A stretch of 64,000 bases of DNA. Source: Planktotalea sp. (GTDB taxonomy: Bacteria; Pseudomonadota; Alphaproteobacteria; Rhodobacterales; Rhodobacteraceae). The notes under the pieces are model-generated. The model was not told where the DNA came from. It did no database searches and saw only the letters and a list, made by a program, of their open reading frames with translations. Shown here piece after piece: positions 25,037-45,720 of this stretch. How positions within the stretch are numbered: position 1 is the stretch's first letter; the number at the start of each line of letters is the position of its first letter. Made by a program: the position numbers and the translations under genes. The stretch lies in assembly GCA_965662135.1 (NCBI GenBank), contig CBFIGL010000013.1:11353-75352 (forward strand), written 5' to 3'.

Positions 25037-25839
25037 GATGCGTCCTCCGTCCGGCCCATGATTTCTTCTTCCATGCTCCAGATCATTTCGAGAATTTCTT
25101 CGCGTGTGCTGCTGTAATCAGCATGTTTCTTCACTTCGCGCAAATCATTGCCAACGCCAAGATCGGCAAATGGCAAACGGTACTCTTTGTGAACGCGACC
25201 TGGACGCGGGGCCATAACCAACAAACGCTCGCCCAAAAGCAGCGCTTCTTCGACAGAGTGGGTGATCAGAATGATCGTCTTACCCGTCTCTCGCCACAGA
25301 TCAAGTACCAGACCTTGCATCTTTTCGCGCGTCAAAGCGTCCAAAGCGCCAAGCGGTTCGTCCATCAAGATCACATCGGGGTCATTGGCCAAGCAACGGG
25401 CCAAAGCCACACGTTGCTGCATGCCGCCTGATAGCTCGTAGATCGCTTTCTCTTTAAAGTCGCCCAAACCGACGACTTCAAGAAGATGTTCAACTTTCTC
25501 TTTGCTTTCCGCGCGGCTGACACCTGCCATGTCGGGGCCGAAGCTGACGTTTTCACGCACCGTCATCCATTCGAACAAAGCGCCCTGCTGGAAAACCATG
25601 CCACGATCGGCGCTGGGTCCAACGACCTTCTTTTCATTCAGAATGATGTTGCCTTCGGTCGGGGCAAGGAAACCGGCCACGATGTTCAAAAGCGTGGTCT
25701 TGCCGCAACCTGACGGTCCAAGCACGCTCATCAGCTCGCCGGATTTAATATCTAGGGATACGTTTTGCAGCGCTTGCACATGCCCGCCATTGGGCAACTC
25801 AAAACGCATGGAAACATTGTCAATTTGAAGTCCAGACAT
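25033..25839 (-). CDS. tauB: Taurine ABC ATP-binding protein
   Basis: GPSGCGKT, LSGGMQQR and MDEPLGALD motifs. Confidence 0.9.
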   Translation of the reverse strand: MSGLQIDNVSMRFELPNGGHVQALQNVSLDIKSGELMSVLGPSGCGKTTLLNIVAGFLAPTEGNIILNEKKVVGPSADRGMVFQQGALFEWMTVRENVSFGPDMAGVSRAESKEKVEHLLEVVGLGDFKEKAIYELSGGMQQRVALARCLANDPDVILMDEPLGALDALTREKMQGLVLDLWRETGKTIILITHSVEEALLLGERLLVMAPRPGRVHKEYRLPFADLGVGNDLREVKKHADYSSTREEILEMIWSMEEEIMGRTEDAS

Positions 25840-41968: not shown

Positions 41969-42619
41969 TTAGCGCGCAAGCATTTTCAAACCCTGCGTCA
42001 CATCTGAGCGCACAGCCAAACGTAACCCCGGTTCATCGCCAGCTTTCAAGGCGGCAACAATCACGCGGTGAAAATGCGGCAGTTCCTTGCGCCGCAAGCG
42101 ACCGTAGAGCGCGCGCATGGTGGGGCCCAGTTGTAGCCAGACCTGCTCTGCCATCGCCAGCATCGCAGGGGCCTGTGCGCGCAGATAAAGCGTGCGGTGG
42201 AACTCCAGATTGGTGCGGATGAAACCCACAGCATCCTGTCGCGCGATTTGCTCTGCGATGGAGGTGTTGATCATCTGCAAACGCTCGATCAGCGCCATAT
42301 GCGCGCGGGGCAAGGCGCGGCTGGCAAGTTCCACCTCGATCAATGCGCGTAGGGCCGCCAGCTCTTCGATCCGCTCACTGCTAAGTTCTGGCGTGGATAC
42401 CCGACCAGATGAGGACATCGACAAAGCGCCCTCAGCCACCAAACGACGTACGGCTTCGCGTGCAGGGGTCATGGACACTTCGAATTCTTCGCCGATCCCG
42501 CGCAAAGTCATCGCCTGACCAGGTGCGATATCGCCGTACATGATCCGTGTGCGCAAAGTGCGATAAACGCGGTCATGCGCGGCGGCAGGTATTTCGGAGG
42601 GGCGTGGGTTCAAAAGCAT
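41969..42619 (-). CDS. GntR-family regulator (FCD)
   Basis: Start reassigned to MLLNPRP. VSMTPAREAVRRL and N.EFH motifs. Confidence 0.9.
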   Translation of the reverse strand: MLLNPRPSEIPAAAHDRVYRTLRTRIMYGDIAPGQAMTLRGIGEEFEVSMTPAREAVRRLVAEGALSMSSSGRVSTPELSSERIEELAALRALIEVELASRALPRAHMALIERLQMINTSIAEQIARQDAVGFIRTNLEFHRTLYLRAQAPAMLAMAEQVWLQLGPTMRALYGRLRRKELPHFHRVIVAALKAGDEPGLRLAVRSDVTQGLKMLAR

Positions 42620-42627
42620 ACCCTTCC

Positions 42628-42639
42628 TTGTGATCACAA
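42628..42639. promoter_or_regulatory. Putative autoregulatory GntR operator
   Basis: Perfect 12-bp palindrome TTGTGATCACAA abutting the RBS of the GntR gene. Confidence 0.6.
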
Positions 42640-42812
42640 AGAAGGGTGGGGTCAAGGGGAGGGTGCCATGATATGGGGGGTTGTGGTGTATGCTACGGCC
42701 TATGGGCGATTTGTGGCCCCGCAACACAGGGCGAACGAGGGATGACGGGCTTTAGTGATGCAGGACGAGGTTGAAAAGAGGAACGTTTACAATGTCCGCT
42801 TCTCTAATTGGG

Positions 42813-43053
42813 TTTCTGGGTCAAGCTCGTTTTCCTTCTTTCTTCTGGGTCGTTGTCGCTCATCCGGGTCACGCGTCTCTTCGCAGTCTGGTTTGATGCC
42901 CTCATGGCATCGCTGCACGCATATGTCGGATCGGACGTGGAGAGCCTTGCTTAGAGGCGCGCTTCTCGTTGCGCAGCAGACATTTTCGGCTTCATCCACG
43001 AACCTCGTCCGGTGAGGGACGACCCCGTCAGGGTTGGTGGGGGGCGTTTTAGA
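42813..43053 (-). ncRNA. Candidate bridge/seek RNA in the IS 3' non-coding end
   Basis: Position is as described for IS1111 elements. Contains AATGTCTGCT (complementary to the target flank) and GAGAAGC (matching the IS right end). Boundaries uncertain. Confidence 0.55.
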
Positions 43054-44075
43054 TCATGCTGTACCCTCCACCTGTGCCGGACGGAATTCCGTGCCGTCGA
43101 CCCACATCCGGTGAAGTAAGACGGCAAGTTTGCAGGCAACCGCGACAACGGCACGACGCCGACCTTTGGTACGGATCAGCCTCATACCCCAGGATTTGAT
43201 CTGCGACCCGGCCATCATGCGCATAAGCAATGCATTGGCTGCGGCATAAAGTGTGGCACGGACATCTCTATCGCCAGCCTTTGATATGCGGCCAGGATTG
43301 TCGTGCTCGCCCGATTGATACCGCCTCGGTGTCAGCCCAAAATGGGCGGCCACAGTGCGGGACCGCCTGAAGCGGGCGGGATCATCAATGGCGGATTTGA
43401 AGGTCAGCGCTGCGATAGGGCCGACACCGGGAACCGTCATCATCCGCATGCAAACTTCGTCCTGAGTTGCAGCGCGCTTGACCCGCCGGTCCAGTTCCAG
43501 AAAGTGCTGATACAAGACGAGCCGGGCATCGAGGAGTGGCGCCAGTGCATGCGCCAAGACTTCGTCCATTTCGATCATAGGTCGGACGATACCGTCGAAG
43601 CTGCCATGCTTCACAGTCTTGGGCAGGCGGATGCCAAAGGTCTTCAACAGACCGCGGACTTCGTTTGCGAGGTCCATTGTCTTCTTCAGAAGTGCCTTGC
43701 GCGTGTGCCTTGCGCCTCCCGGCTCTTCATGTGAACCGGGCTGAACCAACCGGTGCGTAAGACCTGAGCGATACCACGCGCATCGTTCTTATCCGTTTTG
43801 TTGCGCATGGCCGATAGCGCAGCGTTCACTTGACGCGCTTCCATACAGACAACGTCAAAGCCAGCGGCGGTCAGGCCATAGAAAAGATGCTGGCTCATGG
43901 TACCCGCTTCAAAGCCGATACGCTCAATAGGATGCGGAAAAACGGCAAGGCACTCTGCGATCTCATTGACTTCACAAGGCAGCTCCCGCACCAACGGCAC
44001 CGTCCCCTTGGTATCAACAATGCAAAGCGCACACGACCGTAGCGACACGTCCAGTCCAGCATAGTATTCCATCAT
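43054..44075 (-). pseudogene. IS110 DEDD recombinase/transposase, frameshifted
   Basis: GLDVS, FEAG and KTDKNDA in ORF 43686-44075. VPGVGP, GLTP...QSG and GRISKAG in ORF 43054-43749. Frame break at about 43700. Confidence 0.9.
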
Positions 44076-44385
44076 CTATCTCCCTTGTTCACAGATATCC
44101 TGTGATCCTATCGGGAGCTCGACCTCAGAACAGAGGCAGCCCAATTACGCATGCTGTGAGCCGTCCAAGATAGTGGCGAGCGGCGCGCCGGCTGTACATG
44201 CTGCGGTCGATCTAAGGTCGGCAGTGAGCCCATTCCGACGAATGTTGCATTCGGGCCCAATCTCTTTTTTGTGTGTACTAGAACTGCGCTGTGGCAGGTT
44301 CGACGAATGATGTCGGTTTTATCCAAGTAGCGCGATTTGCCGCGTCTATTAATAACCCCTAATCACTTTGAATTGGAAACTTGAA

Positions 44386-45720
44386 ATGACACAGCCAATC
44401 CTCGAATTTCTTCATTCGGCTGATTCGGACAGCATCCCCGAAGAGATGCTTGGACTGGGCCGAAAGTGGTTGCTTGATTTGCTTGGGGTCGCTGCTGCGG
44501 CAACTGAAACCTCAATGTCGCGGATTATACGTGATCATGTGGCCGAGCACTTTGCGCCGGGTCAACGCAAAGTTGCGATGCTTTTTGATGGTCGGCTGGT
44601 CAGTCCGGGTGGGGCTGCGCTTGCGGCCGGTGTCACGATCGATGCGCTGGACGCGCATGACGGTCACAAATTGACCAAAGGCCATGTGGGCTGCGGCGTG
44701 TTGCCTGCTCTTTTATCCTTCACGCAGGCCGAGAATCTGAAAGATGACCGCGCGTTCCTTGCGTCTTTGGTCGTCGGTTATGAGATCGGGACCCGGGCTG
44801 GTATCGCGCTGCACCGAACTGCGCGTGATTACCATACGTCCGGCGCTTGGGTTGCCATCGCGGCCGCCGCCCTTGGGGCGCGGGCGATGGGATTGAACAG
44901 CTCCAAAACACGCGAAGCGATTGGGATTGCCGAATATCATGGGCCGCGCAGCCAAATGATGAGGGTCATTGATCATCCAACTATGGTCAAAGACGGGTCC
45001 GGTTGGGGCGCAATGGCAGGCGTGTCTGCAGCATACCTTGCGGCTGGGGGATTCACGGGCGCGCCTGCGATAACCGTGGAAGCCGACGATGTCGCCGACC
45101 TTTGGGGTGATCTAGGGCAGACTTGGTGCATCGCAGAGCAATATTTCAAACACTACCCGATTTGCCGATGGGCGCAGCCGCCGGTGCAGGCTGTTCTTGA
45201 TCTTCGCAAAGCCCATAAATTGACGTCGCAGGACGTTGAAACGATAGAAATAACAACATTCCACAACTCCAAACGCCTTGCCAAACGTGCACCATTCACG
45301 ACCGAAGAGGCTCAATACTCAACGGCTTATCCGACCGCTGTGGCCATGGTGCGCGGGCGTGTTGACCCTGACGATGTGATGGGGGGCAGTTTCGAGGACC
45401 CTGAAATCAAACGCCTTGCTGCAAGTATGATCGTGCTCGAAAGTGACACCTATAATGCGGCATTTCCAGCCAACCGTATTTCGAGTGTGACGCTAACTTT
45501 GAAGAATGGCGAAACGCTCCGCTCTGGTGATACCGAGGCGCTTGGGGATCCGGAAAACCCCGTGACGCAAGGGGAGGTTGAAGCAAAATTCCATGCTTAC
45601 GCTGCGCCAAAACTGGGGAGCGAGCGGGCGAACGCCTTGGAAAAAGTAGTTTGCCAGTTGGGGAACGGCGCAGGATTGGAGGCTTTTCAGGACCTCATCT
45701 TTGCGCCGATCCGATCTTAA
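44386..45720 (+). CDS. MmgE/PrpD family protein
   Basis: Start reassigned to MTQPIL. LDAHDGH...GH, GYEIG, YH.SG, FKHYPICRW, AQYS and GDPENP motifs. Confidence 0.88.
   Translation: MTQPILEFLHSADSDSIPEEMLGLGRKWLLDLLGVAAAATETSMSRIIRDHVAEHFAPGQRKVAMLFDGRLVSPGGAALAAGVTIDALDAHDGHKLTKGHVGCGVLPALLSFTQAENLKDDRAFLASLVVGYEIGTRAGIALHRTARDYHTSGAWVAIAAAALGARAMGLNSSKTREAIGIAEYHGPRSQMMRVIDHPTMVKDGSGWGAMAGVSAAYLAAGGFTGAPAITVEADDVADLWGDLGQTWCIAEQYFKHYPICRWAQPPVQAVLDLRKAHKLTSQDVETIEITTFHNSKRLAKRAPFTTEEAQYSTAYPTAVAMVRGRVDPDDVMGGSFEDPEIKRLAASMIVLESDTYNAAFPANRISSVTLTLKNGETLRSGDTEALGDPENPVTQGEVEAKFHAYAAPKLGSERANALEKVVCQLGNGAGLEAFQDLIFAPIRS

What the first reader, a model, noticed from the sequence alone, without database searches (positions are those of the whole stretch)
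42791..44165. IS1111-type element whose non-coding end carries guide-like matches to its own target and donor (bridge/seek RNA)
Seen, minus strand: the reconstructed empty site is GGCTCAC-AGC-GGACATT and the circle junction is TTAGAGA-AGC-ATGCGTAAT. The 3' non-coding region contains AATGTCTGCT (42975-42984), complementary to target AGCGGACATT over 10 nt with one G-U wobble, and GAGAAGC (42961-42967), identical to the donor end. Circularisation would place TTGACC 17 bp from AAGCAT, forming a junction promoter. Established: IS110/IS1111 recombinases are RNA-guided. Inference: the guide specificity of this element can be read directly, and the RNA may still work in trans although the recombinase is broken.
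Basis: partly seen in the sequence, partly recalled or inferred. Interest (0 to 1): 0.7.

Follow-up and report, generated by a model that had tools for sequence, protein, structure and literature searches.

The report
Dead IS1111 element with bridge RNA
This is an ordinary, already inactivated copy of an IS1111-type jumping gene whose 3' non-coding end encodes the known kind of guide ("bridge" or "seek") RNA.

Summary
Window 42799-44155 (minus strand) is an IS1111-group member of the IS110 family. It has 8-bp subterminal inverted repeats, an 80-nt 5' end, a 253-nt 3' non-coding region, and a DEDD transposase broken by a frameshifting deletion.

I compared 80 related copies (64 distinct insertions) from Rhodobacteraceae and other Alphaproteobacteria, plus more distant Agrobacterium, Bosea and other lineages.
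- **Boundaries:** The shared core is AG rather than AGC.
- **Right-target guide:** AAUGUCUGCU (42984-42975) covaries with the right flank. Guide U/G/A goes with flank A/C/T.
CUCUAAGC (42956-42949) covaries with the left flank. GG goes with GG in 12 of 12 insertions. No class-level permutation out of 5000 reached the observed score for either guide.
GAGAAGC (42967-42961) lies in the variable loop of the hairpin between the two guides. It occurs in 5 of the 46 aligned non-coding regions and is expected by chance in 28% of shuffles.
- **Family donor guide:** it lies at 42880-42873. It tracks the right-end tip in four allelic states across six sampled elements, and in this copy it carries a unique A>C change.

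No intact cognate transposase was found in this genome. Transcription and trans activity remain untested. The element is a new member of a known kind and of modest interest.

The parts
42799..44155 (-). Whole IS1111-group element, counted with the AG core at both junctions (left AG 44155-44154, right AG 42800-42799); 1357 bp, against 1363-1376 bp in most intact relatives
   Evidence: Junction alignment of 80 related loci; element lengths
44156..44162 (-). Left half of the target (GGCTCAC); fits the family consensus GGC(TC/CC/GG)NN
42791..42798 (-). Right half of the target (CGGACATT); fits the family consensus C-N-GAC-N-TT
44140..44147 (-). Left subterminal inverted repeat TAATTGGG
   Evidence: compensatory change to TAATCGGG/CCCGATTA in the Agrobacterium, Bosea and G226 relatives
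42805..42812 (-). Right subterminal inverted repeat CCCAATTA, followed by the tip GAGA and the AG core
43686..44075 (-). N-terminal transposase fragment (129 aa), DEDD/RuvC-like domain PF01548
43054..43749 (-). C-terminal transposase fragment in another frame (PF02371), with the GL-P----SG motif (GLTPRRYQSG)
43689..43714 (-). Site of the lesion: net 16-nt deletion relative to intact 344-345-aa relatives. Metagenome contigs show a form 13 nt shorter still (29-nt deletion). Both forms shift the frame
43005..43022 (-). 5' stem-loop of the RNA (UCGUCC / GGACGA)
   Evidence: 95% of cells paired
42937..42999 (-). Target-binding loop: basal stems GUGGA/UCCAC and AGCC/GGCU enclosing an internal loop and an apical hairpin
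42975..42984 (-). [quoted passage not shown]
   Evidence: Covariation
42958..42975 (-). Apical hairpin UGCGC-AACGAGAA-GCGCG.
42949..42956 (-). Left-target guide CUCUAAGC; same sense as left flank plus core, so it pairs with the bottom strand; matches this site at 6 of 8 positions
42862..42931 (-). Donor-binding loop: basal stem AUCCG/CGGAU and apical helices 42917-42882
42915..42923 (-). Candidate right-donor guide UAUGCGUGC. It can pair with either strand of the near-palindromic left-end tip; unresolved
42873..42880 (-). Left-donor guide position: AGAGACGC here, AGAGAAGC (right-end tip + AG + C) in 43 of the 46 aligned family members
42819..42824 (-). TTGACC, -35-like box; GCTTGA is invariant across the family alignment and sits at a fixed distance from the right-end tip
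   Evidence: function inferred

Best explanation
The region is a decayed copy of an IS1111-group insertion sequence that is widespread in Rhodobacteraceae and other Alphaproteobacteria.

Its 3' non-coding region encodes a bridge/seek RNA of about 165 nt (roughly 43026-42860). The RNA has a 5' stem-loop, a target-binding loop and a donor-binding loop.
[quoted passage not shown] This is the order reported for IS1111 seekRNAs.
- **Donor-binding loop.** The 3' strand repeats the right-end tip plus core, and so would recognise the joined ends of the excised circle.

In active relatives the DEDD transposase, guided by this RNA, would insert the circle at sites of the form GGC(T/C)C-NN-AG-C-N-GAC-N-TT, often inside a repeated extragenic sequence.

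The window copy is dead in cis because its transposase is frameshifted, and its left-donor guide carries an A>C change.

Shown here: the element anatomy, the boundaries, guide-flank covariation and the lesion. Inferred from the cited literature: that the RNA is made, that it binds the transposase, and that a circle with a junction promoter forms.
For: - **Protein domains:** Pfam PF01548 and PF02371 on the two ORF fragments. An intact relative scores as NCBIfam NF033542 'IS110 family RNA-guided transposase'.
- **Junctions:** 80 related loci give a junction table with variable flanks and a constant element.
- **Right-target guide:** guide position 6 versus flank position 5 gives U->A 30/47, G->C 8/12 and A->T 8/12. 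Flank A/G variation opposite guide U is consistent with wobble.
- **Left-target guide:** GG with GG in 12/12, UC with TC or CC in 43/48.
- **Permutation:** shuffling the 19 guide classes never reached the observed score, 0/5000 for each guide.
- **Distant relatives:** new guide alleles match their own flanks. Bosea has AACUUCUGCU against AGCTGAAGTT and CCAAAAGC against CCAAAAGC. Agrobacterium has CCAACAGC against CCAACAGC.
- **Left-donor guide:** it tracks the right-end tip as AGAGAAGC, AAAGAAGC, TACAGAAGC and ACGGAAGC.
- **Structure:** the consensus fold shows two internal loops with 95.8% of cells paired, and one helix shows UA<->CG compensation in 12 sequences.
- **Lesion:** intact relatives encode 344-345 aa; this copy has a net 16-nt deletion.
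- **Literature:** the mechanism is described in PMC11187229 and PMC11208160.
Against: - **No direct RNA evidence:** Rfam has no matching family. The only RNA-library contigs laid are 90-95% relatives, and they cannot prove transcription.
- **No internal signals:** no sigma-70-like promoter or terminator was found on the sense strand inside the element.
- **Little structural covariation:** most helices are invariant, so they give little covariation support. The single-sequence fold is not better than shuffles, z = -0.83.
- **Right-donor guide unresolved:** the G226 relative does not fit either pairing register.
- **This site is imperfect:** the left flank matches the left-target guide at only 6 of 8 positions.
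Confidence: 0.9

Rival explanations
1. The apparent target bases (AGCGGACATT on the right) belong to the element itself. On this reading the complementarity with the 10-mer is only intramolecular RNA or DNA structure, not a guide-target relation.
For: Two copies in this genome (the window copy and the C14 remnant) both read AGCGGACATT after TTAGAGA.
Against: Copies with identical non-coding regions within one genome carry many different right flanks. Examples are 13 copies in HTCC2083 and 11 in one Roseovarius genome. Metagenome contigs show a further, near-identical copy diverging exactly after GAGAAGC. The flank base changes with the guide base. Joined-flank sequences exist uninterrupted.
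Confidence: 0.02
2. Target choice is made by the protein reading a repeated extragenic sequence. On this reading the guide-flank matches reflect shared ancestry of element subfamilies and host repeats, not RNA pairing.
For: Many insertions lie in a shared longer repeat, with TTCGCTGC to the right and TGCAGCATCCG... or GAGTTTTTCAACA... to the left. Guide classes are partly phylogenetic, and kin are not independent.
Against: Three guide alleles at one position each prefer their complementary base, including within single genomes. A/G tolerance opposite U is what RNA-DNA wobble predicts. Very distant relatives with entirely different guides match entirely different flanks. RNA guidance has been shown experimentally for IS1111 members (PMC11187229).
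Confidence: 0.05
3. One reading: GAGAAGC at 42967-42961 is the donor-recognition segment of this RNA.
For: It is a 7-nt identity with the right-end tip plus C. It is the longest such match in this copy.
Against: A match this good is expected in 28% of shuffles. It lies in a hairpin loop that varies freely while the right-end tip is nearly invariant; only 5 of the 46 aligned non-coding regions have it. A different segment, at a position in the second loop equivalent to that of the left-target guide in the first, follows the right-end tip in every sampled lineage.
Confidence: 0.03

Closest known systems
IS1111-family seekRNA elements ISEc11, ISPa11 and ISKpn4 (Siddiquee et al. 2024, PMC11187229)
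   Same: Subterminal inverted repeats and a long non-coding region downstream of the transposase gene. The transposase is about 345 aa with the GL-P----SG motif. Two short target matches lie on opposite strands and overlap at the insertion point, with the top-strand match 5' of the bottom-strand match. Related elements are naturally retargeted. Like ISPa11, this family often inserts in repeated extragenic sequences.
   Different: The target sequence and guide sequences differ. No RNA or transposition data exist for this family. This copy is frameshifted. I also identify a donor-matching segment, which that paper does not describe.
IS621 bridge RNA, IS110 group (Durrant et al. 2024, PMC11208160; structures 8WT6 and related entries)
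   Same: The RNA has two internal loops. [quoted passage not shown] There is a dinucleotide core (CT in IS621, AG here). The left-donor guide equals the element end plus core.
   Different: The RNA lies in the right end rather than the left end. The order of the guides within a loop is reversed. The right-target guide is longer (10 nt). The transposase matches IS621 only over the C-terminal part (E = 7e-11). The right-donor guide geometry is unresolved.
ISPpu9 and ISPpu10 of Pseudomonas putida, REP-targeting IS110-family elements (PMC12288879; bioRxiv 10.64898/2026.03.19.712850). I saw only their titles and abstracts
   Same: Many copies inserted at one position of a repeated intergenic sequence.
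   Different: Different host class, subgroup and target. I did not compare sequences.

Membership tests
IS1111 group of the IS110 family | N-terminal DEDD (RuvC-like) transposase domain | tested here: met
   PF01548, E = 1.7e-11, on 44075-43686
IS1111 group of the IS110 family | C-terminal PF02371 domain with the GL-P----S/TG motif | tested here: met
   PF02371, E = 2.2e-22; GLTPRRYQSG in the translation; NF033542 on an intact relative
IS1111 group of the IS110 family | Subterminal inverted repeats of 7-17 bp, with short extensions beyond them | tested here: met
   TAATTGGG / CCCAATTA, 8 bp, lying 6 and 4 nt from the AG core; compensatory change in relatives
IS1111 group of the IS110 family | The longer non-coding region lies downstream of the transposase gene | tested here: met
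   253 nt downstream against about 80 nt upstream
IS1111 group of the IS110 family | Site-specific insertion without a target duplication beyond the core | tested here: met
   Consensus of 64 insertions; uninterrupted consensus sites in the own genome
IS1111 group of the IS110 family | Circular intermediate with a junction promoter | not testable with these tools
   The -35-like box is invariant at a fixed distance from the tip; no circle-junction contig was seen
Bridge RNA / seekRNA | Two guide segments that pair with opposite strands of the target, overlap at the core and covary with the flanks | tested here: met
Bridge RNA / seekRNA | Guides displayed in internal loops closed by conserved stems | tested here: met
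   Consensus fold; 95.8% of cells paired against 28-42% for slid controls; few compensatory changes
Bridge RNA / seekRNA | Donor-binding segments that match the element ends | tested here: inconclusive
   The left-donor guide follows the right-end tip in four allelic states across six sampled elements. The right-donor guide is ambiguous. In this copy the left-donor guide has one mismatch.
Bridge RNA / seekRNA | The RNA is transcribed and bound by the transposase | not testable with these tools
   Only contigs of 90-95% relatives were found in an RNA library, which is no proof of transcription

The most novel reading that the evidence does not exclude
The broken element was copied to a new site after its transposase gene was already frameshifted. 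That would make it a non-autonomous 'ends plus bridge RNA' element mobilised in trans by another transposase.

The hint comes from three metagenome studies. The non-coding region forks into a second flank (AGC-TGCCGTTCGAACGC). At the lesion, the only X1 and X3 contigs covering it carry the 29-nt-deletion form. In the best-holding run, their depth is about twice that of the flanks.
Probability: 0.1. Interest if true: 0.5.

Novelty: new member of a known kind. Interest (0 to 1): 0.3.

Why it matters
RNA-guided target choice by IS110/IS1111 recombinases has been established since 2024, and NCBI's own family model already names these proteins 'RNA-guided transposase'. The element is therefore not a discovery.

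Two things have some value:
- **A clean natural dataset.** One IS family shows three alleles at a single guide position and at least five left-guide alleles, each with matching insertion sites, and wobble tolerance is visible. The donor guide also follows the element tip across lineages. This could serve to annotate bridge RNAs in Alphaproteobacteria, for which Rfam has no model.
- **A check on method.** The result shows how reliable reading guides from a single copy is. The long match was right and the short one was wrong.

Tried and rejected
- **Rfam** scan of 42300-44700 at E <= 1: no family matched.
- **Empty site in 40 relatives' genomes:** only the neighbouring GntR gene is conserved at the DNA level, so the intergenic site could not be recovered.
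- **Metagenome runs:** no contig skips the element and none shows a circle junction. The RNA-library contigs belong to relatives at 90-95% identity and prove nothing about transcription.
- **Second copy's right flank** seen in metagenomes: not found in the 89%-complete assembly.
- **Promoter and terminator scan:** nothing on the sense strand inside the element.
- **Single-sequence fold:** no better than shuffles.
- **5' stem-loop as an extra guide:** its loop (CUCACC versus AAUCC) tracks subfamily, not guide class (L057 and L068 break the link), so I dropped the idea.
- **Right-donor guide:** it could not be assigned. The left-end tip GCATGC is palindromic, and the G226 copy fits neither register.
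- **Earlier notes of this scan:** nothing relevant.

Full report
**Observation.**
The left junction is GGCTCAC-AGC-ATGCGTAAT, the right junction is TTAGAGA-AGC-GGACATT, AATGTCTGCT is at 42984-42975, GAGAAGC is at 42967-42961 and TTGACC is at 42824-42819.

Two ORF fragments in different frames carry PF01548 (DEDD domain) and PF02371. The C-terminal fragment holds the GL-P----SG motif that PMC11187229 gives for IS1111 transposases. The 5' non-coding end is about 80 nt and the 3' one is 253 nt. Eight-base subterminal inverted repeats (TAATTGGG / CCCAATTA) lie 6 and 4 nt inside the junctions.

**Other copies in this genome.**
The genome is 62 contigs and 89% complete. It holds a remnant on C14 and 83 bp of a left end at the end of contig C9, with a different left flank (GAGCCCTT). 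The C14 remnant has lost its N-terminal part. It has also lost the whole RNA region, through a deletion between two CCGGATG repeats.

**Boundaries and target.**
A back-translated search of one genome per species returned 80 loci at 74-84% nucleotide identity. Most are from Rhodobacteraceae, including 13 copies in HTCC2083 and 14 in one Roseovarius genome.

Aligning the junctions shows a constant element from AGCATGCGTAATTGGGC to CCCAATTAGAGAAG, with variable flanks.
- The left flanks follow GGC(TC/CC/GG)-N-N.
- The right flanks follow C-N-GAC-N-TT, often continuing CGCTGC.
- The left junction is AGC in 64 of 64 insertions.
- The right junction is AG followed by C (58), G (12) or A (1).

So only AG is common to both junctions, and AG is the likely core. 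The C at the left belongs to the element.

Two unoccupied sites in the window's own genome read GGCTCGAAGCCGACATT and GGCTCAAAGCCGACCTT. They lie inside a longer repeat (TGCAGCATCCGGAACTCTG...) that also flanks an insertion in HTCC2083. This confirms simple insertion at AG with no further duplication. It also suggests a repeated extragenic sequence as a frequent target.

**The guide RNA.**
The 46 aligned 3' non-coding regions (A1) share one architecture:
- a 5' stem-loop;
- a first internal loop closed by GUGGA/UCCAC plus AGCC/GGCU and capped by the hairpin UGCGC-loop-GCGCG;
- a second internal loop closed by AUCCG/CGGAU and capped by two helices.

In the named structure, 95.8% of cells pair, against 28-42% when partners are slid. 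One helix shows UA<->CG compensation in 12 sequences. Most pairs never vary, so structural covariation is thin.

It is complementary to the top strand of AG + C-N-GAC-N-TT.
- Guide position 6 occurs as U, G or A. The flanks of those elements prefer A (30/47), C (8/12) and T (8/12).
- Opposite the two invariant guide U's, the flanks carry A or G far more often than C. This is what RNA-DNA wobble predicts.

It is the same sense as the left flank plus core: CUCUAAGC here, at 42956-42949.
- Elements with GG at guide positions 2-3 sit next to GG in 12/12 insertions.
- Those with UC sit next to TC or CC in 43/48 insertions.
- Those with UU before AGC sit mostly next to a T.

*Statistical and independent checks.*
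- Shuffling the 19 guide classes among their sets of insertions never reached the observed complementarity, 0/5000 for each guide.
- Bosea (66% identical): AACUUCUGCU against flank AGCTGAAGTT, and CCAAAAGC against CCAAAAGC.
- Agrobacterium (66% identical): CCAACAGC against CCAACAGC.

The order of the guides, top-strand match 5' of bottom-strand match with overlap at the insertion point, is the one PMC11187229 reports for IS1111 seekRNAs. It is the reverse of IS621.

For the window copy, the right half pairs at 10/10 positions (one G-U) and the left half at 6/8.

**The donor claim.**
- That loop varies freely while the right-end tip is nearly invariant. Only 5 of the 46 aligned regions carry the heptamer.
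- A match that good to the junction arises in 28% of shuffles.

The family-conserved match is AGAGAAGC (right-end tip + AG + C). It lies one base after the apical stem on the 3' strand of the second loop, which is the position the left-target guide occupies in the first loop.

Across lineages this segment follows the right-end tip: AGAGAAGC, AAAGAAGC (G226, tip TTAAAGAAG), TACAGAAGC (G109, tip TTACAGAAGC) and ACGGAAGC (G221, tip TTACGGAAGC).

In the window copy it reads AGAGACGC (42880-42873), a change unique among the 46 sequences.

A right-donor guide could not be assigned. The 5' strand of the second loop carries 6-8 nt that are the same sense as the left-end tip in several lineages. However, the tip here (GCATGC) is palindromic, and one relative fits neither reading.

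**State of this copy.**
- Intact relatives encode 344-345 aa. The window copy has a net 16-nt deletion near 43700.
- Contigs from two metagenome studies (X1, X3) show a form with 13 nt fewer, that is a 29-nt deletion. They show no form with an open frame.
- Contigs from three studies (X1, X3, X4) show the RNA region joined to a second flank (AGC-TGCCGTTCGAACGC). That flank is absent from the assembly.
- The assembly's other IS110-family transposases are 44%, 31% and 27% identical.
- Activity of the RNA in trans therefore has no support here. The shared lesion in what may be two copies is only a weak hint of trans mobilisation.

**Promoter.**
In distant lineages a TTGAC box keeps the same distance from the right-end tip. 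This fits a -35 box completed by the joined ends. The -10 (AAGCAT) is poor, and nothing was tested. No promoter or terminator consensus lies on the sense strand inside the element.

**Comparison and verdict.**
Every tested defining feature of the IS1111 group is met. The target-binding half of a bridge/seek RNA is shown by covariation. The donor-binding half is shown for one guide only.

The mechanism has been known since 2024 (PMC11187229, PMC11208160). Durrant et al. predicted a bridge RNA in the right end of 93% of IS1111 entries. Rfam has no model that matches.

The finding is a correct reading of a known system in a new, inactivated member, with one wrong detail and one omission.

Noticed in passing
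window 42620-42647: A perfect inverted repeat with 12-bp arms and a TGTGATCACA centre lies just upstream of the likely start of the GntR-family gene (41969-42727, minus strand). The terminator scan flagged it, but it looks more like a GntR/FadR-type operator. The IS sits between this gene and a divergent 450-aa ORF (44368-45720), which I read from memory as MmgE/PrpD-like and did not test.
   Followed up: no
L004:1500-1900 (G000:C14:61137-61510): This remnant of the same IS lacks the N-terminal half. Its entire bridge-RNA region was removed by a deletion between two CCGGATG repeats. It keeps the right end and the flank AGCGGACATT.
   Followed up: partly
window 43689-43714: There is a 13-nt length polymorphism at the lesion. 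The assembly carries a tandem repeat of GCGCAAGGCACAC that the X1 and X3 contigs covering the site (two studies) lack. This could be strain variation or an assembly artefact.
   Followed up: partly
L097 and L098 (G000:C15:16439-16455 and 25546-25562): Two unoccupied target-like sites lie 9 kb apart. Each is inside the same repeat of about 40 nt or more (TGCAGCATCCGGAACTCTGGGCTC...). The same repeat type flanks insertions in other genera.
   Followed up: partly
G000:C8:127422-128420, C13:81469-81705 and C44:12973-13209: Three further IS110-family transposase genes are in the same genome. One of them (44% identical, IS1111-like) lies at a contig end, and another lies about 6 kb beyond the window.
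   Followed up: partly
L106-L113 (G109) and L114-L121 (G221): These are two distant multi-copy IS1111-type families at 44-48% protein identity. G109 inserts next to a palindromic CCYGGRTGG...CCCGGG repeat, and its RNA carries CCAUCCAGG complementary to that repeat. In G221, 6 of the 8 fetched copies sit inside a larger repeated unit.
   Followed up: partly
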